From positions 106,640,001 to 106,704,000 of the forward strand of contig NC_086373.1 in assembly GCF_036588685.1 (NCBI RefSeq): a stretch of 64,000 bases of DNA. Direction: 5' to 3'. Below, one piece after another: positions 23,575 through 54,719 of this stretch. Positions within the stretch are counted from its first letter, which is position 1. The number at the start of each line of letters is the position of its first letter. The position numbers were made by a program, and so were the translations under genes. The notes below the pieces were generated by a model. It had not been told where the DNA came from. It saw only the letters and a list, made by a program, of their open reading frames with translations, and did not search any database. Origin of the DNA: Mytilus trossulus (taxonomy: Eukaryota).

Positions 23575-24760
23575 GTTGTTTAGTTTTAAGTGAGTCATAA
23601 ATTGTTGATTGTGATATCCATTTTGAGTTCCTGTTGTAGACAATTAATTTTGAATAGTCAATAAATGACAATCAGACTTTATTATAAGAGCATTATATAG
23701 TACATTTGTATTATTCTTTGCTTATATTTGTGTATTAGGCACAGACAGAATGCTTGCAACCGAAGATATTCATATTATGTTTTATGTGAGTTTTTTTAAT
23801 TTTTTTTTAATTTAAAATAATATTGATTTGTACTATAGTGCTGCCACATTTACATCTCATCAGTGCTTTATTTGTTTAATTTTCTATTCTTGTTTGTTTG
23901 CGGAGTGTGTTTGTCTGTATGCCCATGTTCTCTTTGCATTGTAAGTTTGAACTACAGAGGTAGATGTGATATGTTCATGAAACATCATCAATTAATATAA
24001 CAAGATTTTTGCAAAGTGTATGCAAAAAGGGTGGTGAAACTTCATTCAAATTGTTGATTCAATTGTCATGATTTGCGTTTTTGCAAACAAAGAATGAGGC
24101 TATTGAATACAACTCTCAATATTCACAAATGAGTTCATTATTGTTAAGTTTACTTTTTATAAAATAATGAATTATTCGAAAATAAGGATTTATAATAATT
24201 CTCAAGGCAGAGATAAGTGATCAACTTTGGCATGTCAACTGTTTTGATTCTAGCGCCACCTTAAGAAGACGAAATGCACGTCTGAAGTGATAAATTATAA
24301 ACCTATTATCTTAGATCAGTTTTTATAACCACCGCTTGTGGACGTTCCAAGGTATCATCAGCCTAGTAGTAAGCACATTTGTGTTCACATGAAATGTCAT
24401 TGAGATGTCTACTTTCTAAAAAAAAGAATTGTATATTATATTGAATTCCTCAAAATACTCAGGTTGTCTGCTTACTCCCATAAAAAGGAAAAATTTACAA
24501 AATACCGAATTCCGAGTACAATTCAAAACAGAAATTCTTCTATAAGACGACAAAATCAAAAGTTCAAACACATAATACCAATGAAAAACAACTCTCGTAC
24601 AGGCATTTCCTTATGTAGAAAATTTTGAACTAAACCGGGTTTTACAGCTAGCTAATCCTCTCTTTTGAGTTGTACGATAGTTGCAAACTTTGCATTGTAT
24701 TAACAACAATGTGTAAACAAAACAAACAGACCTAGCTTAGTCCTAATAGGTAAACATGTC

Positions 24761-25119
24761 AAATAGTTATCAAAGGTACCAGGATTATAATTTAGTACGC
24801 CAGACGCGCGTTTCGTCTACATAAGACTCATCAGTGACCGTCATATCAAAATATTTATAAAGCCAAACAAGTACAAAGTTGAAGAGCATTGAGGATCCAA
24901 AATTCCAAAAAGTTGTGCCAATACGGCTAAGGTAATCTATGCCTGGGATAAGAAAATCCTTAGTTATTCGAAAAATTCAAAGTTTTGTAACAGGAAATTT
25001 ATTAATATGACCACGTTATTGATATTCATGTCAACACCGAAGTGTTGACTACTGGGCTGGTGATACCCTCGGGGACGAAACGTCCACCAGCAGTGGCATC
25101 GACCCAGTGGTTTAAATAG
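24761..25119 (-). mobile_element. ~353-bp retrozyme-like repeat monomer carrying a type I hammerhead ribozyme
   Basis: Bounded by AAATAG direct repeats and contains the hammerhead at 24840-24797. Further partial or decayed copies lie at ~24140-24420, 26310-26420, 32645-32978, 33127-33360, 33640-33750 and 46686-46712. Confidence 0.8.
24797..24840 (-). ncRNA. Minimal type I hammerhead ribozyme (core intact)
   Basis: GTCA-CTGATGA-GTCT(TATGT)AGAC-GAAA-CGCGCG-TC^TGGC. The CUGAUGA and GAAA core is intact, helix III is palindromic, and the GUC cleavage triplet places the cut between 24803 and 24802. Confidence 0.85.
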
Positions 25120-28100
25120 TAAATAGTAAATAGGGGTACAGTGCACATTGCGTTATAATCTTAATCACTATGAAAACAAACAAATATATCAACATAAAAA
25201 AAGGCAAATATACAGAACACATAAGCAAAATAATAAGACAACAATAGAATAAAATTACCAAAGGAACACATCACAATGGCAGATTGCATTAGTACTGAGC
25301 CAAGTCAAAATGGTATTACAAAAAAAATGACTGAACAGTAAAGGTTAATAATTTACAAAGACAAATTCAATAACTCTATAACACGTATTTAAGATTAAAA
25401 AAAACAACGTTAATACAAAGAGTCTTAACCATCATGTATTTTTTGTGAAGCTGATATGGAATATTTATCAACAAGGGTCTCTTCCGATAATTTTTGTTAG
25501 TAAAAGGACGAGACATTTGACATAACTCTGGTTCACCAACTTTCTGCTCGATACTGGTAACGTTTTATAAAGTCTGAGTATCAGCTACAAGCTCTTGAAT
25601 ACCGACTAATTTGGGAAATGTATATCTTATATACAGTTGAAGTTGGTTTATTGCTACTAAGGTGGGGGAAATTGATAATTTCAAAATTGGAAATCGTCTC
25701 GTTTGTGATAGATTCTGGTACTAAAATGACCGCTTATGTCAAAGTGAAGTATATGTCTAAAAAGGCCGAGGGGAAGCTCTATTTTCTCCTTAACTACTAG
25801 TTCTGAAGGCATCCAACAAGAAAAGCTTGGATTTTTAATGAAAAGATCATCCTCAAAATATTTGAATGTAAAATTTTAAAATCTGGCTTCTTTGATCTTC
25901 TTGTTTTTGACTAGTGTTTGAATGAACTCTGACTCTTATAAAAATTAAAAGAATCGGCAAGAGAGGCTAACAGTTTGTTTCCATAGAAATGCCGACAAAT
26001 TGTTGGAAAAATTCGACTTCCAAATTCAACAAATATGTTGCCGTTTCTTATGGGGTTTTTCCATTTTGAATTTTCCTGGAAGTTCGGTGTTTTTGTTATT
26101 TCACTATTCCTAGGTAGACTCAAACTTCAAAACCAATTCAGTATCTTTGAACGAATTTAGTAAAGGTTTCAATTAATTTGTGACTACGAAATTCTTGACT
26201 TAATAATTTGCAAGTGTTATCCAAATTGAATACAAGGACAGAATAAGCAGTGGTTAGCTCCTTACACCAAACCTCTTCAAGAAGGATTATGTAGAAATAA
26301 ACTCATTATAGGTATCAGGCTCAAGTTTGTACGCGTTTGTCTTCCAAAAACTCATCGGTGATGCTCGAATAAAAAAAATACCGAAATATAATATTAAGTT
26401 GAAGAGCATTGAGGAACCCAAATAAAGCTAAGATTATATATTGTTGTGGAAGAAAGATTGTAATCGACACTGCACAAGTATTACTACTGGGTGAAAAATT
26501 ACGACCACTGCCATGATTTGGTTGACCAATTAAAAAGTTTCTCTGACTGAACTCATTGAAAAACATTTTATAATAATCTAAGATCTTTTTTCATATGCAA
26601 TAGAGTCAATTTTGGCTTCAAATTTTAGGTTCATCTAAAGAAAGATTTTGGACACTTTTTAAACACTTAAGTGTTTATTTCAATTGTTTCAGTTCGTTTA
26701 TGTGAAAGATTCTGACTGATTCAGTCATTAAAAACGCGCCGATTCAAGCTAACATATGAAAAATCTATCAAATATGCCAAAAAACGTCACTTTTCAGATG
26801 GTTTTTGTCAAAAATGAAAGTTGCCGCATCCGTGTTCATCCTCAACCTTTATATATGTTATGTATTATCATCAAATACAACTTATATTTCAATATTATGA
26901 ATGAACACGAATGCGGCCACTTTCATTTAAGACGGAAACCGTCTAAAATTTAGCTAAAATGCTTAAATTGTGAAGATTTCAGTAATTTAGCATGACTTCA
27001 TGATGCACGTACCCGATATTTGTGCATTGTATTGTCAAAAACAGACCATATTTATGAAGCAGAAGCATTCTACTATGATATTGTAAATATGCGGGATAAA
27101 TTGTTGTCGGCAACGAAAAATTAATAAAATACCAACTTTAAAACATATTGTGTAAATACACAATCAAATATATATTCAACAGTTAGTGAGTTAGTAAAAA
27201 CCAAGAGATTATGTCCGTGTAAAATTTGAAGTACTGTGGTTTTCTTATGTAAATAAATAAACAAATGTTATAAATTCTAATATGAATGCGATACTTTTAA
27301 AATCTAATAGCAGTATTTTTTTTATGTCACTTTAAGTAACAGTGTATGTTAATAAGCAGTTTTCAGGTCACTGCGTAACGCGAAAATGTTTTTGGTATCA
27401 TCTCTCTGATTTCTTAATTGGCCTTTGGAGCAAAATCAATCAAATTAAGTTTTATCAACATCATCGTAATTGAATATGGTAGCCGAAAATTAAAAAATTA
27501 TTGTTCACATATGTTACATATATCAATTTTTTTTTATGAACGCATCGACGCAATACATATTTGGGACAATGAAATTGACCTGTGTCAAAGATGAATCATA
27601 CTGTCCTCGATCAATTGGATTCGACGAACTGAATCTTTAAAAGGTTCCCTTAAATAACCGCTTTCCAGTCCAGTCTGAGTAATTCATAGTATCTCATTTG
27701 ACATGCATTTTCAGAAGAGAACCAGGTAAGAACATCAATAAATAATTGATTCGATAGGTTGCTTAAAAAGAGAAGTTTATGTGCCAGGCATCTGAAAATA
27801 TGCGTCCACGCAGCGAGCTGGTTATGTTCATAGATATGTCGAATTGCCAAAAGTGAAAAGTCTTTGATATCCAGCAAGAACTGTTTTTCCTTGTCAACAT
27901 GTTTTTCGATGTTAATTATAAATACATCTACTGTTTGACAACATTTTAATTCGTGGTATTTGAGGTTGTTTTCTTTATAGTCAAGAGCTGACCATTCGGA
28001 TTTTCATTAATTGTTTTACGTTTTATATTTGGACGGTATCTTTTTGTGACAACAGTGATTGAACATATTTCTTTGTTTTAAATAATTGTTCTTCCATTTG

Positions 28101-29394
28101 TATATTCATTTTGTTTGTTGGGATGTTTTTTAATGATATTTCTATGTCTATGTGGATATTTTCAGCATGATTATAGTTATCAAAGTTACCAGGCTTATGA
28201 CCTATGACCGAATTAAATATGTCGATAGAATATTCACGGTAGCCACATTTAAATTTCTCACTTGCATCATCACTGAAAAGAGAGTAACTCGTTACAACCA
28301 TACGATCGAAAATGATAGAATTAGCAAGGTTGGTAGAACTGTCAACTATCTATAGGGTAAAACAACATTGTTTGACATGATTCGTACATGTCTACCCCGT
28401 TAATATTGTCATAAACTATAATTGTGAATTGTGTTTACGTTTTCTTGACATATATTCTGAATTGTTATCGTTTTCATTTTATATGAGAAAACTTTTGCAG
28501 TTATATTAGAAAACTATTGCATTCATAACTTTTTTATAATTAAAGCACATCGCTATTATATAACAAAAATATCGCATCCATGTTATAAAATATAGCAGTA
28601 TCATTGAATAAAATGTGATTTTGATTTAGAAAACAATTAAATTCATCGAAATTGCTCTCCACTTATTTTGCTACTTGATATTATTGAATTGTACCTCTAC
28701 AAATGATAAATGGTGCATTAATGTTTCATTAAATCAACATATCGATTTTTTTTTCGTTTTTTAAAATGCAACTTCCTTGTTATCATCTGACACAATCCAT
28801 GAAAGTTATACAGGTAGACGTTTTCCGTGTTAAATATTACCCTGTTTTAAAAATAGTCATGTTTATACCGAAAAATCTCCCTTTCTTCATACAATTGTAA
28901 ACATTCGTCTGATATTTCAAACAATGCAAATAGTTTATTTAAGACAATATCGCTATTTCATATAAGAAACTTTTTTCATCTATTCACTTCTTCCATAGAT
29001 TAATTCTGATCAGTCAGTTTTCGTAGAATCCATTAAATAGTTGATATAGTAAATGCTTTATTTCATCAAAGTGTTATTTTAAATTATTTATTTTACTAAA
29101 CATGATATAAGCCAACTTTGACTTAACAGCCTAAACATTTATGTAAAAATATTTTTCAAACATGTCTTTCCTTAAGTAAGAAGAAAAACGTAAAAAGTGT
29201 TTTTTTTTCATAAGAAAATGTTTATGTTTTATCTATAAAAGGAAATAAAACTATATGTTTTAGTTCTAGAATTATGACGGTATAAGGAAGTGCTATGGTT
29301 CATTTGAATTGTATTAAATGTGAACTTCCTTTATTGTTTTTTTTCTTTTAGAACTAATTATACTCTACAAAGGAATACATATGTGATAATTGCA

Positions 29395-31767: not shown

Positions 31768-32744
31768 CATTTAAAAAGCTAAAGAATTAAGATATGACAT
31801 TTCAATTATATTCAGTTTAACGTTGTAGAAGGTCAAAAAAGATGATTAGACCATAAAGTATTTGTAAATATCAATTTTATGTTTTCTGTTCTTTTTTTAA
31901 AAACTTACTAGTATGTTATGAGCATACATAATGAAGGCTACTCTAGAAAACAAATTTATTGCGCACTGAAATCTGTATCTTATCTTTATATTCATTACAA
32001 CATGATTTTTTTAATAGAATATAATGTCATAAGTTGGTTTTTCTATTCTTATATGGTTGACCATTAAAAGCGAGACGAAAGATACCACAAGGGCATTAAA
32101 ACTCAGAAGTCGAAAATAAACAGACAACGCAATGGTAAAAAAGAAAAAAGAGCAAAGCACAAACCATTGTATACAAAACACTACAAGGAAGAAAAACGAC
32201 TGAGCAACACCATCCCAACTCCATGAAAGATTTATGTTTTCGTTCATTGAATTTTCACAAGTACTAGTAAAATTGAGAATGGGAATGGGGAATGTGTCTA
32301 AGAGACAACAACCCGCCCATAGAAAAGACAACAGCAGAAGGTCACCAACAGGTCTTCAATGCAACGAAAAACTCCAGCACCCCAAGCTTCCTTCGTAGTT
32401 CATTTAACTCAATAATATAAGAATATTTACCTCTATGTCTGAAGTGCCAAACAACGAATGAAGGCATAACAAGCTTTGGAACATGCACTATTTGCATTAC
32501 TTAAAACTGTGTTTAAGTCTCATACTACACTAGTATTGACTTTGTGGATTTTAGAAACTTGTACAATATAAAACACAACTTATAGATATCATTCAGATAT
32601 TAGAAGAGAAATGTTCGATTTTTGTCATTAGGTTTATTAGAATGTTAGTGGTTCGATGCTACTGCTGGTGGACGTTTCGTCCCCAAAGGTATCACCAGCC
32701 CTGGAGTCAGCACCTGTGTTGACATGAATTATATGGTAATTCTA

Positions 32745-33510
32745 ATAAATTTCTTGTTGACAAATTTATTTTTTTTTAAACTAAGGATTTTCTTATCACA
32801 GAAATAGATAACCTTAGTCGTATTTGGCACGTTTTGGAATTTTGGGTGCTCAATGCTCTTCAACTTTGTAATTGTTTGGCTTTATAACTACTTTGATCTG
32901 AGCGTCACTGCTGGGTCTTATATAGACGAAACGAGAGTCTGGCGTATTAAATTATGTTCCTGGTACCTTTGATAACTATAAATTACACACCTATCATTTG
33001 TGACTTTGGAATGTGAACTTTTTTAATGTTAGTAAACTGAAGAAGACCTCAAATGTGAAAGAAACAGCCTTTTCAAATAGATATACATGTTTTCACCATG
33101 ACGTCACATAAAACTTGAATTTTTCTATAAATTTTCTTGTTGACAATTTTTTTTTTTTTAAACTAAGGATTTTCTTATCACAGAAATAGATAACCTTAGT
33201 CGTATTTGGCACGTTTTGGAATTTTGGGTGCTCAGTGCTCTTCAACTTTGTAATTGTTTGGCTTTATAACTACTTTGATCTGAGCGTCACTGCTGGGTCT
33301 TATATAGACGAAACGAGAGTCTGGCGTATTAAATTATGTTCCTGGTACCTTTGATAACTATAAATTACACACCTATCATTTGTGACTTTGGAATGTGAAC
33401 TTTTTTAATGTTAGTAAACTGAAGAAGACCTCAAATGTGAAAGAAACAGCCTTTTCAAATAGATATACATGTTTTCACCATGACGTCACATAAAACTTGA
33501 ATTTTTCTAT
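32745..33510 (+). repeat. Near-perfect 382-bp tandem duplication containing two core-mutated hammerhead copies (32902-32945, 33284-33327)
   Basis: The sequence repeats with period 382. In both copies the hammerhead core reads CTGCTGG instead of CTGATGA. Confidence 0.9.
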
Positions 33511-33927
33511 AAATTGAAGATCATTGAAACCATCGAAACACACATCTTGTTCAGTTCATGGAAAATATTTGGAAAAAAACCCACACTGATTCCAACATCA
33601 AAGAAGATATCATCTAAATGTGGACTATTTATTTGTTGATTTTGGCCTTTTTACTTGTTTGATTCAAGTCACTGATGAATCTTTTGAGTCTTTTGTAGAC
33701 AAAATGCAGGTTTCCCAAACAAAATTTTAATTCTGGTATCTCTGATGAGTTTATTTGCTATATTGGTTTGGCTCTCTCTAATTAATTTACAGGATAATAA
33801 CATCATAAACTACTGAAAGATTTGAGTACATTAAACTTACAATATTTTTCAGATCTTTCCAAGTCTTTGTTTCTTGTGTACATTGACATTTTTTTTTTTC
33901 ATGAATATATGCTTTTTTCATGTATTA

Positions 33928-45100: not shown

Positions 45101-48100
45101 TAACCTTTCTAGTAAGTTTTGGGGTCTACACATGTGTGACTATTGAGATCTAACCTTTCTAGAAAGTTTTGGGGTCAACACATCTGTGACTAATGAGATT
45201 TAACCTTTCTAGAAAGTTTTGGGGTCAACACATCTGTGACTAATGAGATCTAACCTTTCTAGAAAGTTTTGGGGTCAACACATCTGTGACTAATGAGATC
45301 TAACCTTTCTAGAAAGTTTTGGGGTCAACACATCTGTGACTATTGAGATCTCACTTTTCTAGTAAGTTTTGGGGTCTACACATGTGTGACTATTGAGATC
45401 TAACCTTTCTAGAAAGTTTTGGGGTCAACACATCTGTGACTAATGAGATCTAACCTTTCTAGAAAGTTTTGGGGTCAACACATCTGTGACTAATGAGATC
45501 TCACCTTTCTAGAAAGTTTTGGGGTCAACACATCTGTGACTATTGAGATCTCACTTTTCTAGTAAGTTTTGGGGTCTACACATGTGTGACTATTGAGATC
45601 TAACCTTTTAGAAAGTTTTGGGGTCAACACATCTGTGACTATTGAGATCTCACTTTTCTAGTAAGTTTTGGGGTCTACACATCTGTGACTATTGAGATCT
45701 AACCTTTCTAGAAAGTTTTGGGGTCAACACATCTGTGACTTATGAGATCTAACCTTTCTAGAAAGTTTTGGGGTCAACACATCTGTGACTATTGAGATCT
45801 AACCTTTCTAGTAAGTTTTGGGGTCTACACATGTGTGACTATTGAGATCTAACCTTTCTAGTTAGTTTGGGGGTCTACACATCTGTGATTATTGAGATCT
45901 AACCTTTCCAGTAAGTTTGGGGGTCTACACATCTGTGATTATTGAGATCTTACCTTTCTAGTAAGTTTGGGGGTCTACACATCAGTTGTATCCTTTTCCA
46001 AAACCAGATTAACACAATCAGAACACATGGAAACATGAAAGTCTTAATGGAGAACCATATTATAGTAAATCCTCCATTCTGATGAATTGTCTACAACAAC
46101 AAAAACAGAATTATCTTAAAATAAACAGGTATAAATGGGACACTGATGATGCCATGCTTGCATATAAAGCTATAAAATAATTTAACTAAAGAAATGTTAA
46201 AATGATGCTACCCAAATTTGTACTTGATACATGTAAGTTTCATAATATTTGCTTGAGGCATTTTTCATTTGTAAAGAAGCATAATTAACTCTCGAACGAT
46301 TAAAGTAACACCACCAACATTCAAACTTTATATGTGTTTTTTTGTTAAGTACATTGTATTAAATAAGTGTTGTCTGTACATTTCATAACATTTGGTTGAG
46401 GCAAACTAAAGTAAGAGAATAAAAATCTATTGATAAAGGAGCATAACTCTAAAACAGTGAAAGTGACGCCACCAAAATAAAAACTTGATCTGTGTTTTGT
46501 GGTTATAAGCATTGTCTATTAATTTCATAAAACTTGGTTGAGTCAAACTGAAGCAAAAAATTCAGCAATGTTTTCATTGGTAAAGGGGCAGAATTCTAGT
46601 ATGGTAAAAGTGACGCCACCAAAATTCAAACATGATTTTTGTTTTCAAATAAGCATTGTGTATAAATTTGATTGAGGCAAACTTAATAGTTATCAAAGGT
46701 ACCAGGATTATAAGATAGAGAACAGAAACCAACTTTGGGATGTATGTACATAAAATGTATGTTTAAGTAGATTAAGAGAACTTATTAAGGTTTAGACAAT
46801 ATAATCAACAACAGGTGATATCTATTAAAAATTCTACTAACCACAAGAGAGATATCATCAATCTGACCAATATTTATATTCTTCTCAGGACTGGGAGGGA
46901 GTCGTAGGTTCAGAAGATAGTAATCATGGTGTAAACTGGAAATCTCAAAGGCATGCAGCAGCTCACAATCATACTGAGACCCTGGTTCTGTCTTAAAAAT
47001 AAATTTAAAGATGAAAGTAATGGTTGATTAGAACAATTGATGAACAGCAATATAAAACTTTATCAATTATAAAAATAATAATAATTTAGTAATTCCTACC
47101 TCATTCTTCTCATTAGAAGTGTCAGAACAGACAAGTTTTCAGTAATTCCTACCTCATTCTTCTCATTAGAAGTGTCAGAACAGACAAGTTTTCAGTAATT
47201 CCTACCTCATTCTTCTCATTAGAAGTGTCAGAACAGACAAGTTTTCAGTTATTCCTACCTCATTCTTCTCATTAGAAGTGTCAGAACAGACAAGTTTTCA
47301 GTTATTCCTACCTCATTCTTCTCATTAGAAGTGTCAGAACAGACAAGTTATCAGTAATTCCTTCCTCATTCTTCTCATTAGAAGCGTCAGAACAGACAAG
47401 TTATTAGTAATTCCTTCCTCATTCTTCTCATTAGAAGTGTCAGAACAGACAAGTTTTCAGTAATTCCTACCTCATTCTTCTCATTAGAAGTGTCGGAACA
47501 GACAAGTTTTCAGTAATTCCTACCATTAGAAGTGTCAGAACAGACAAGTTTTTAGTTATTCCTATAGAAGTGTTGGAACAGACAAGTTTTCAGTAATTCC
47601 TACCTCATTCTTCTCATAAATACTGATGGAACAGAATTTTTTTTAGTAATTCCTACCTCATTCTTCTCATTTGTACTGATGGTACAGACAAGTTTTCTAT
47701 CCTCTGCAGATTCTGCCAGTAATTTCCAATCACCCTCTCTATCTCCTTCGTTCCTGTAACCCAGTCTAAAATCCAACAGCATCACTGGGTTTAGTCCTAA
47801 TAATGATAAATAAATAAACATAGAGTGAAAATGCAGTGGTGACTGATGATATAGATGTACTGTAAATGAAGTGAGTTCAAATCTGCAATTTTGCAAGCCC
47901 TCTCTCATGGTGCTTCTTGAGGTATTTTTTTTAAGAGTTCTAAATTCAGTTCTTTGCACACATTAAATGACCTAAAAGTTAACTGTTTGTACACTTTTGT
48001 TCTTTGGTCTTTAGATTAAGCTTAGTCAATTAAAGAGGAAACATGTCCAATATCACTGCTCAATTTGAGGCTCAGTTGCATCCGGATATACATTTACATG

Positions 48101-52191: not shown

Positions 52192-54719
52192 GTCTTTGAT
52201 GGACAATCAGTCTAAATAACTCATAAAACGTGCTTTATCACTTTCGACAACTCTTCTGTCTGAAGAAAAGACTACAGCGCCATCTGGTCTGTTTATGTCA
52301 GACGCTTCCATTTTTAGGGGTGTACATAAATTTGTAGGACAACTTTCTTTGTCCAATTTTCCTTGTTGTATTTTGGTGATTTATTGTGAGTATTTGTTTT
52401 TACACCATATGCTAATAATCAAGTTCTCAACGAAATAGATATATAAAATTTCGTGACAAAAATATAGGAAATAACAAGTAGCGAAATATTCTTACCTGTC
52501 CCTAACAATAAGCAATCCCGTAAAGTTGCATATGGCGGAGAATACGAATTTTCCAGTGACTGAAATATAAGCAGAAGATTCCCAGTTCCTTATATTTACT
52601 AAGGTAGTTGTTTTTTCTTCATTTCTTACATTTAACATTTGTTAAGTTTATTGGACATATTTTATTCATCTTATATTCATAATCATTCTTTTAGTTTTAG
52701 TAGATAGTTTGGTTGATTTGTTGATATTTTTTTACTATTCATGTCATGAGTCCCATTGAACTGTCTTAAGAAAGTAGCAACAACGGACGTCTCTAAGGGC
52801 TTGCTTTCCGACCGATAATTAGCTCCGCAGACAGCCACTTTCTTGACTTTGAAAGAAAATTTTACTAACGGCATAACAAAATTACTGAACTCAAAGGAAA
52901 ATTCAAAACTCAAAGTCCTTTATCAAATGAAAGGCATTTCCTTGTTAAGAAAATGATGGTGTAAACTTGGTAATATATCGGACCGTTTAATATTGCGATA
53001 AAGTCATTAAAAAATGAAATGTAATAGGCAACCGACCCTGATTCAAAACTGAACCTTCCGTGACGCGGTAGTCTCAGCGCGGTGTTAAGTTTCTGTTAGT
53101 TAGTACCTGGATACGTTGAAGTTGTCTGTTGACCAGTGCGACAATCATTCTTAAGCCAAAAAACTTTTCTATTGCATAGCCTCATTTTCTATTTAGGATC
53201 ATTCATCATGCAGTTACCCATAAACTTCGTTTTGTTGGTTTGTCCATCCACAGGGCATAGGGGGATCTATACGTGATCTATACTGTTCTGAAGTGTTATC
53301 TTTTTGCAATTTGGCACACACACAAATCCATAGGTAAAGCGATGATTTACCTTCTTTTGCATCTATAACATGAAATCAAACAGTCCAAACAGACGACATA
53401 TAAAATCGTCATGGTATGCTTGCAAGTGCTTGTTAAAGTTGCTAGCCTATTTATGTTCATGTTCATATCAGGGCCTTTTTTGGACTATCGGCAGATCGCT
53501 CATTGATCGGAAACAAACTGACAATATCATGACAAAAAACGAAAACAGACAAGAACACAAACAACAGTACAAAAACACAACATAGAAAACTAAAGACCGA
53601 CAAATATGAACCCCACTTAAAACCGGCGCTCATTCCAGGTGCTGTGGAAGGGTAAGCATATAAAGTCTGCTACATACGTGAAACCCATCGTTGTGCTAAG
53701 GAAGCTATATACATGATAAGTCTAATTTGGTAGGTCTCATTTATCTAAATTACACACGAATTGTTGGTAAGTTATAACGAGTCTTTGCGTTGTTAATTAT
53801 TTCTTTTGATTTTTTTTACTTGTATACACGTTTTTGTATGTTATACTATCAATTATGAAAATTAAAGTTGAATCGGTGCTCATAAATATGACAGACAGCG
53901 AATTTATATCCATTGAGTCTCTCTTGCTTTTAAATTCCAATCGAAAGTACTGCAAGCTATCTGGTTTCTGTATCACTTTTTCGTTTTTAAAATTTCATAA
54001 ATAATTTACAGAAATTTATATAAAGATAAAAAAAAAAGAAGATGTTGTATGATTGCCAATGAAGTGAACTAATATATATGACAAAAGAGGACATCAAAAA
54101 TAAAAGCCAAATCCATTTAGGTCAACTTTGCCTGAGAAAGTTGAAACATTAGACTTAGTTTATAATCTGTCAATGTTATAAAGTTCGCTATAAAGCATGT
54201 TAGTACACCGAAGTATTGACTACTGAGCTAAACATACCCTCGGGACTGACAGTCCACCACCAGTGGTAATGATTATGTAGGCCCTGCTGTTCATAAGACC
54301 GATATGTACAGTCGGATGTTTAAGTTTTAACGTGTACGGTGTTAGCACATGAGGTAGTGAATAGTTTATGGGAAGACATAAACCTTTCATTCTCCGATCC
54401 CATCATAAGTACTTGACGAGAATCGGTAACTGGCAGATTTAAAGTATTTTGTTTGACTCGGCAATCTGGGGGCCCACGACCTCCCACACTCTAGGCGAAC
54501 ACGTTACCACGAGACCATGTACCTAGTATTAGGTTTATAGATTGAACCCCCCAACGTGTTAAATCAGGACAGCAAAAGTAATACAAAAAGTCTTGTTATT
54601 TTATAAAGAGGGAAGGACATGTCTATAAACATTTTCTCATCCGAGCTAAAGTTTTGAAAATCACGAATGAACTACTGTACTCTTACCTTTCAGATTAAAG
54701 ATTTATTTAATTTCAGACT

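What the first reader, a model, noticed from the sequence alone, without database searches (positions are those of the whole stretch)
24761..25119. Full-length retrozyme-like monomer with intact hammerhead, inserted inside a Penelope-like element
The minus strand carries a complete CUGAUGA/GAAA/GUC type I hammerhead with a palindromic helix III (ACGCGCGT) in a ~353-bp non-coding unit. The unit is bounded by AAATAG repeats, triplicated on one side. This matches non-LTR retrozymes, small ribozyme-bearing circRNA retroelements reported in metazoans including mussels and proposed to be mobilised by Penelope-like elements. Here the host sequence is itself a PLE RT remnant.
Basis: partly seen in the sequence, partly recalled or inferred. 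Interest (0 to 1): 0.7.

Follow-up and report, generated by a model that had tools for sequence, protein, structure and literature searches.

The report
Damaged retrozyme copy, Naiad copying signal
This is one slightly damaged copy of an abundant ribozyme-bearing repeat, likely the mussel 'retrozyme' already published, pasted into a dead Naiad retrotransposon; the repeat shares with Naiads a predicted RNA stem-loop just past the point where copies of both end, which likely names the enzyme that spreads it.

Summary
The type I hammerhead (minus strand, 24797-24840), the 353-bp unit and the insertion into a Penelope-like element are real. The family has 15,767 exact hammerhead cores in this genome, sits in short tandem arrays, is transcribed mainly on the ribozyme strand, and fits the published mussel non-LTR retrozyme. 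The host is an old Naiad 3' UTR, and 15 relatives show the empty site. Two corrections: this copy's helix I carries a private GC>CG change (4 of 6 pairs left), and with one hammerhead it cannot release a circle. Sitting inside a Naiad proves nothing, since Naiads lie near 19 of 116 loci. The informative part is a 65-nt stem-loop (25048-25112) shared with the start of full-length Naiads, with three compensatory pairs. Two retrozyme subfamilies and the Naiad all end 3-12 nt before it (70 of 98, 21 of 29, 31 of 46). Likely mechanism: Naiad reverse transcriptase starts internally at this signal and copies a circular or uncleaved multimeric RNA. This scan noted the Naiad link before on other DNA of this genome; I took it as a lead and re-tested it. 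Six literature searches did not find it in print.

The parts
24761..25119 (-). Retrozyme insertion: one 353-bp monomer plus 6 nt of the next turn
   Evidence: 96.7% to a family monomer; terminal redundancy; family copies genome-wide
24797..24840 (-). Type I hammerhead; core intact, predicted cut between 24803 and 24802, palindromic helix III 24811-24804
   Evidence: Rfam RF00163 32.3 bits, E 6e-5; coordinates
24839..24840 (-). Private GC>CG change breaking the two outer pairs of helix I
   Evidence: 1 match in the genome; 1386 of 1410 X21 first-mate-plus reads carry the family base at 24839; duplex -3.1 vs -6.9 kcal/mol
24761..24802 (-). 42-nt tail from the predicted cut site to the fixed 3' end, ending in a short U-tract; inferred start of reverse transcription
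   Evidence: 76 of 98 independent arrays end within -8..+5 nt of this point
25048..25112 (-). Bulged stem-loop shared with the 5' start of full-length Naiads; inferred RT recruitment and start signal
   Evidence: Same predicted fold in both; 3 pairs changed on both sides, 97.8% of cells paired; 27 Naiad-type matches, 18 followed by the Naiad ORF start
25030..25049 (-). Hairpin with UUCG tetraloop following the stem-loop
   Evidence: Sequence and fold; the common A>G subfamily variant keeps a G-U pair only on this strand
24761..24766 (+). AAATAG: target hexamer identical to the complement of the element's 3' end (microhomology; one arm of the duplication)
   Evidence: Empty sites; element end
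25113..25133 (+). Three TAAATAG units: element junction sequence, one extra slipped copy, and the second arm of the target duplication (25128-33)
   Evidence: Sequence; empty sites hold one hexamer; origin by slippage is inferred
24480..24760 (-). Host Naiad: distal 3' UTR up to its 3' end
   Evidence: Aligns to Naiad 3' ends and is contiguous with 25128 in relatives
25128..26043 (-). Host Naiad: proximal 3' UTR and frameshifted C-terminal RT (25422-26039), 5'-truncated
   Evidence: tblastn; 77% over 802 columns to a full-length Naiad with N-terminal GIY-YIG, CxC and DKA
26053..26108 (+). Inverted piece of the Naiad 3' end next to the 5' truncation, a PLE hallmark
   Evidence: blastn; hallmark as described in PMC8557442 section 6

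Best explanation
This is a single, helix-I-damaged copy of a high-copy hammerhead retrozyme inserted in the 3' UTR of an old Naiad element, and the family is likely spread by Naiad reverse transcriptase, which would start copying just before a stem-loop that the retrozyme shares with Naiads. Steps: (1) tandem arrays elsewhere are transcribed on the ribozyme strand (shown); (2) the hammerheads cut out monomers that a host ligase closes into circles (published for the mussel family, not tested here); (3) Naiad protein binds the shared stem-loop (inferred); (4) its GIY-YIG domain nicks AT-rich DNA, and the A-rich 3' end pairs with the U-tract 6-7 nt before the stem (inferred; here the target AAATAG matches the element's end); (5) copying runs through the intact cut site and beyond one unit, and stops at a variable point (the fixed 3' ends, variable 5' ends and more-than-unit lengths are shown; a circle as the template is inferred). 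This copy went once round plus 6 nt, holds one weakened ribozyme, and is likely a dead end.
For: 15,767 exact hammerhead cores, reversed-pattern control 0. Arrays of 354-nt period. 76 of 98 independent arrays end within a 14-nt window, about 4 expected; 61 of those 76 are longer than one monomer; 5' ends are scattered. No excess of 5' ends at the cut site: 29 matches against 41 at a control 4 nt away, so cleaved linear monomers are not the main template. Stranded runs X21-X23: 980 vs 149, 1124 vs 165 and 2035 vs 179 in bin 25002-25027; X24 184 vs 187; end-to-start junction reads 516/112, 613/90, 1167/129. Shared domain: 27 exact Naiad-type matches, control 0; 18 of 27 are followed by the Naiad ORF start, 25 of 27 are preceded by a complete Naiad 3' end, none of the 18 by adjoining retrozyme sequence. 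The outer helix has 3 pairs changed on both sides. Ends lie 3-12 nt before that helix in subfamily 1 (70 of 98), subfamily 2 (21 of 29) and Naiad (31 of 46); RNA reads show the same Naiad end (loose ends behind L193:1454-1457). Internal initiation at a stem-loop on AT-rich targets is shown in vitro for another PLE (PMC11167929). Head-to-head inverted copies in 2 of 76 arrays.
Against: No binding or retrotransposition test was possible. Covariation rests on 7 sequences from 3 lineages; 'pairs with a change on both sides' was reached by 182 of 500 shuffles, and the structure was derived from these sequences. Two of five Naiad copies folded alone gave another MFE (L205, L202). The domain folds about as well on the opposite strand (-30.6 vs -29.0 kcal/mol), and the whole circle folds better there (z -3.0 vs -0.9). 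Junction reads cannot tell circles from read-through of arrays, and in PMC11167929 unprocessed RNA was the main substrate. In PMC11167929 priming needed no homology to the target. Only one Naiad family was examined; no other PLE clade of this genome was searched. Naiad ORF transcripts were scarce in the four runs (depth mostly under 10). 22 of 98 arrays do not end at the fixed point. Sequence identity to the deposited mussel circRNAs could not be checked.
Confidence: 0.68

Rival explanations
1. Same element and same Naiad start signal, but the template is an uncleaved linear read-through transcript of a tandem array; circles are a by-product and the hammerhead is not needed for spreading.
For: PMC11167929: hammerhead mutants do not affect insertion and unprocessed RNA is the main substrate. 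Long arrays exist (15 cores in L112; a run of matches at 355-nt steps over about 39 kb at C1:269-308 kb). No read ends pile up at the cut site.
Against: The published mussel RNA is mostly circular (PMC7229834). Common subfamily variants avoid the core and helix I (variable columns are loop II and positions outside helix I), which points to selection for cleavage in source copies.
Confidence: 0.3
2. The helper is another, hammerhead-bearing PLE (Poseidon, Neptune or Hydra type) from whose pseudo-LTR the retrozyme derives; the Naiad likeness reflects a signal common to several PLEs or an old capture.
For: Xenopus retrozymes match pseudo-LTRs of annotated PLEs (bioRxiv 10.64898/2026.07.22.740005). 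Mussels hold PLEs with atypical hammerheads (PMC7229834). The retrozyme shares only this domain, not the 3' UTR, with the Naiad.
Against: None of 29 subfamily-2 loci has a reading frame over 101 aa behind the domain; the only ORF found behind it is the Naiad's. End geometry matches the Naiad to within about 1 nt.
Confidence: 0.17
3. The unit is an ambisense, viroid-like RNA: the plus strand at 25057-25088 reads like a second, minimal hammerhead (CUGGUGA, 13 nt, GAAACGUC), allowing RNA-to-RNA replication.
For: Same 13-nt spacing between core halves as in the real hammerhead; the plus-strand circle folds better than shuffles (z -3.0); reviews mention negative-polarity retrozyme RNA (PMC7761336).
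Against: 7,574 copies read CUGGUGA against 79 with CUGAUGA; the need for A at that place is recalled, not tested. The GAAACGUC half is absent in subfamily 2 and in Naiads, while the sense-strand fold is kept with G-U pairs. Opposite-strand RNA is the minority.
Confidence: 0.04
4. The unit is the host Naiad's own pseudo-LTR or a DNA-level satellite, not a separate retro-insertion.
For: Same orientation as the host and downstream of its ORF; megasatellite-like arrays exist.
Against: 15 empty sites; very different divergence of host and insert; dispersed arrays share one end and have unrelated flanks.
Confidence: 0.01

Closest known systems
Mytilus galloprovincialis non-LTR retrozyme (Mg353; Cervera and de la Pena 2020, PMC7229834; read: parts 2-4 of 6, supplement not readable)
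   Same: Type I hammerhead in thousands of copies, two similar families, repeats of about 350-390 bp (354 and 365 here), low GC, short tandem arrays, abundant RNA.
   Different: Sequence identity not checked. The parts read give no fixed insertion end and no named helper beyond PLEs as 'a strong candidate'. This copy is a lone monomer with a weakened helix I.
Naiad Penelope-like elements (Craig et al. 2021, PMC8557442; read: passages and section 6)
   Same: Host and full-length relatives have N-terminal GIY-YIG, CxC, DKA and C-terminal RT; 5' truncation, partial tandems, inverted 5' pieces, AT-rich targets. The retrozyme shares the stem-loop at their start and the position of the 3' end.
   Different: Naiads lack canonical hammerheads and encode a protein; the passages read describe no RNA start signal. 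The Naiad version has an extra 24-nt hairpin.
Poseidon PLE of Anolis (PAc), internal initiation (Frangieh et al. 2024, PMC11167929; read: parts 1-2 of 4)
   Same: Reverse transcription starts internally at a stem-loop downstream of the hammerhead cut, on AT-rich targets, and needs RNA 3' of the start.
   Different: Another PLE clade, autonomous, start inside the ORF and within the stem-loop; no homology to the target needed. Here the start lies just 5' of the stem, at a U-tract.
Xenopus retrozymes derived from PLE pseudo-LTRs (Li et al. 2026, bioRxiv 10.64898/2026.07.22.740005; read: parts 1-3 of 5, supplements not seen)
   Same: Sequence shared between retrozymes and PLE termini, read as a non-autonomous relationship.
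   Different: Mainly vertebrates, no mollusc sampled; link is general pseudo-LTR homology. Here it is one discrete fold shared with a ribozyme-less Naiad.

Membership tests
Metazoan non-LTR retrozyme | Type I hammerhead motif | tested here: met
   RF00163, E 6e-5, 32.3 bits, 1.7 below the gathering score owing to two broken pairs; core plus 6-bp helix I intact in 168 of 256 family pieces covering the motif
Metazoan non-LTR retrozyme | Short (150-450 bp), non-coding, low-GC unit in tandem repeats, many copies | tested here: met
   354-nt period, 15,767 cores; this copy itself is a monomer
Metazoan non-LTR retrozyme | No LTR, primer-binding site or polypurine tract | tested here: inconclusive
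   Terminal redundancy is 6 nt only, so no LTR; PBS and PPT not searched
Metazoan non-LTR retrozyme | Transcribed on the ribozyme strand | tested here: met
   Family level, 3 of 4 runs strand-biased, the fourth shows no bias; assumes the first mate reads opposite to the RNA
Metazoan non-LTR retrozyme | Self-cleavage and circular RNA | not testable with these tools
   Junction reads fit circles or array read-through; published for the mussel family
Active retrozyme locus (two or more hammerheads in tandem, per Li et al. 2026) | [quoted passage not shown] | tested here: not met
   One hammerhead in this insertion, helix I weakened
Mytilus Mg353 family specifically | Sequence identity to deposited circRNAs | not testable with these tools
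   Supplement unreadable; assignment rests on size, two families and copy number
Naiad PLE (host) | N-terminal GIY-YIG before RT | tested here: met
   On the full-length relative L184: PF01541 at aa 136-228, E 1.6e-7; RT motifs C-terminal. The window remnant holds only the RT end
Naiad PLE (host) | CxC and DKA motifs | tested here: met
   CDC and DKA in L184, L055 and L047 translations; definition
Naiad-mobilised non-autonomous element | Shared cis signal at the insertion end | tested here: met
Naiad-mobilised non-autonomous element | Copied by Naiad RT in trans | not testable with these tools
   Needs biochemistry
Ambisense viroid-like RNA | Intact hammerhead on the opposite strand | tested here: not met
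   Core variant in 7,574 of 7,653 matches; half of the motif lost in subfamily 2 and Naiad

The most novel reading that the evidence does not exclude
Mussel retrozymes are ribozyme-made RNA circles that hijack a ribozyme-less Naiad through a 65-nt structured signal acting like telomerase RNA's template boundary: it docks the enzyme 3' of the start and sets initiation at a U-tract 6-7 nt away, so any small circle carrying the signal is written into the genome as tandem copies.
Probability: 0.45. Interest if true: 0.7.

Novelty: new variant of a known kind. Interest (0 to 1): 0.5.

Why it matters
The element itself is likely the published mussel retrozyme, and this copy is ordinary. The 2020 review states that metazoan retrozymes show no conserved motif pointing to their helper (PMC7761336). 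A discrete fold shared with Naiads, at the same distance from the insertion end in three families, names a candidate enzyme and a 65-nt substrate. That makes two open questions testable in the PAc-type in vitro assay: who mobilises animal retrozymes, and what RNA signal a telomerase-related PLE enzyme reads.

Tried and rejected
Antisense hammerhead at 25057-25088: rejected. A self-locking pairing between that stretch and the real hammerhead did not appear in the MFE of the linear or circular monomer; not pursued further. Location inside a Naiad as evidence for the helper: rejected. Run-off of RT at the cut site: not seen (29 vs 41; one control position only, raw matches that include a few local tandem repeats). 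Template-switch chimeras with Naiad: a few abutting cases (L071, L098, L112), mostly explained by mutual nesting, not used. Target-site duplications as a family rule: only a modest excess, 12 vs 3.9 expected at 7 nt or more among 76 arrays. Rfam has no credible family for the Naiad stem-loop; MIR161/MIR5380 matches near 26800-26945 are an unrelated inverted repeat. A DNA search with the 93-nt domain returned nothing because common words are skipped; no evidence. No RNA holder was listed by the run index; raw runs were laid instead. The MAFFT alignment misplaced the inner GAUG helix, so it was left out of the pair count. Likenesses of the domain to Pol III A/B boxes, twister or HDV ribozymes were judged by eye from recalled consensus and dropped untested. 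No earlier notes near this window.

Full report
Observation. The unit 24761-25119 is a 353-bp monomer plus 6 nt. The word 'intact' needs a limit: the 5' strand of helix I has GC changed to CG at 24839-40. This variant occurs once in the 1.30-Gb genome, leaves 4 of 6 pairs and raises the duplex energy from -6.9 to -3.1 kcal/mol. A bulged 6-pair alternative can be drawn but the energy model did not choose it.

Family. The genome holds 15,767 exact matches to the hammerhead core pattern and none to the reversed control. The best-scoring copies are 94-97% identical and lie in arrays of 354-nt period. A second subfamily of about 365 nt is 81.5% identical (721 exact matches to its domain). This fits the description of the Mytilus galloprovincialis retrozymes: about 5000 hammerheads, two families, 350-390-bp repeats, circles in tissue (PMC7229834, parts 2-4 read).

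Expression. Four raw RNA runs under the same species label were laid on 24560-25320. 5,506, 6,202, 9,282 and 3,000 reads lay on it, almost all within the unit. In X21-X23 first mates lie mostly on the plus strand (980 vs 149, 1124 vs 165, 2035 vs 179 in bin 25002-25027), which in most stranded libraries means RNA of the ribozyme strand; X24 shows no bias. Hundreds of reads join the unit's end to its start, which fits circles and array read-through alike. No read ends pile up. At 24839, 1386 of 1410 X21 reads carry the family base, and the flanks are nearly bare, so nothing points to this copy as a source; the animals sequenced may lack this insertion.

Host. The flanks belong to a Penelope-like element on the same strand: RT end at 25422-26039 with frameshifts, 3' UTR down to about 24480, and an inverted piece of its 3' end at 26053-26108. 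Of 24 related loci, 15 had both flanks and all 15 join them across one A-rich hexamer, so the unit is a true insertion in the 3' UTR. A full-length relative (L184, 77% over 802 columns) has an N-terminal GIY-YIG, CxC and DKA: a Naiad by the criteria of PMC8557442. The location carries no weight: the host is far older than the insert, and Naiad ORF pieces lie in the fetched flanks of 19 of 116 retrozyme loci.

Insertion footprint. From 116 loci I kept the longest array of each and dropped 6 that ran off the locus and 12 that shared flanks. 76 of the 98 end within -8..+5 nt of one point, 42 nt past the cut site; 61 of the 76 exceed one monomer; 5' ends are scattered. These loci were chosen by similarity or by a point variant, so lengths are biased upward. 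Genome-wide, 5' junctions at the cut site (29) are no commoner than 4 nt away (41). A cleaved linear monomer is therefore not the main template; a circle or an uncleaved multimer is. Here the target AAATAG equals the complement of the element's end, which suggests priming by microhomology; the triplication is the element's own junction heptamer repeated once, plus the target copy (inference). Short target duplications are in modest excess across the family.

Shared signal. I had marked 25048-25112 as a conserved structured domain and first tested it as an antisense hammerhead; that failed. Earlier notes of this scan said the domain also opens Naiads, so I tested that. Extended Naiad loci show it just before the ORF. 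A Naiad-type pattern has 27 exact matches and no control match; 18 are followed by the ORF start, 25 are preceded by a complete Naiad 3' end, and 9 lie in two short tandem arrays without ORF. Folded alone, the window domain and Naiad L193 give the same topology, the Naiad with one extra hairpin; two other Naiad copies folded differently. In the outer 7-bp helix three pairs change on both sides; 97.8% of cells pair, against 31-59% when slid, but only three lineages are compared and the count of such pairs is not beyond shuffles (182 of 500). The decisive pattern is geometric: ends fall 3-12 nt before this helix in subfamily 1 (70 of 98), subfamily 2 (21 of 29) and Naiad (31 of 46), each at a short U-tract, although the sequences upstream are otherwise unlike.

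Mechanism. Shown: family, expression strand, empty site, fixed end, more-than-unit copies, shared domain. From the literature: cleavage and circles for the mussel family; internal initiation at a stem-loop on AT-rich DNA for an Anolis PLE, where the hammerhead was dispensable (PMC11167929, parts 1-2 read). Inferred: Naiad protein binds the stem-loop, nicks AT-rich DNA, primes at the U-tract and copies round the RNA. This copy has a single weakened ribozyme and cannot excise a monomer.

Novelty. Searches found the retrozyme papers, the Naiad paper, the PAc paper and a 2026 preprint tying Xenopus retrozymes to PLE pseudo-LTRs (parts 1-3 read, no mollusc sampled). None of the text read reports a Naiad-shared start signal; unread supplements and subscription journals could. 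The 2020 review says no helper-indicating motif was known. The element is known; the signal and the named helper are the addition, already noted by this scan on other DNA of this genome and re-tested here. Verdict: real, mostly known, interest 0.5.

Noticed in passing
L209-L215 (G000:C12:27544285-27545095) and L207-L208 (G000:C10:46617705-46617869): Tandem arrays of 131-bp and 140-bp units made only of the last bases of the Naiad 3' end, the start stem-loop and about 25 nt behind it, with no ORF and no hammerhead: possible minimal non-autonomous Naiad derivatives.
   Followed up: no
L193, L199, L200, L204, L217 (oriented locus positions 1011-1039): A Naiad subfamily carries a 29-nt piece of the retrozyme tail at the same place in its 3' UTR, so retrozyme sequence has travelled inside an amplifying Naiad (also L184, L188).
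   Followed up: no
window 32649-32988 and 33122-33370 (+): Two older retrozyme copies (84%) with a broken core, duplicated together with their 3' flank.
   Followed up: partly
window 24260-24393 (+), 26332-26423 (-), 33685-33746, 54205-54266, 46685-46713, 28173-28198: Further decayed or very short retrozyme pieces; the last two are 26-29-nt tail-only stubs ending at the fixed point.
   Followed up: partly
G000:C1:269000-308000: A retrozyme run of about 39 kb at 355-nt steps near a chromosome end, likely expanded at the DNA level.
   Followed up: no
L066, L068, L115-L117, L154, L155, L161, L162, L169: One retrozyme fragment with the same flanks at ten places: captured by another repeat that then amplified.
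   Followed up: no
window 26792-26948: A 157-bp imperfect inverted repeat, unrelated to the finding, possibly a MITE; it gives weak miRNA matches.
   Followed up: no
L071, L112, L098: Naiad ORF pieces abut the 5' end of a retrozyme array head-to-head (L071, L112) or in line (L098); could be joint insertions or later nesting.
   Followed up: partly
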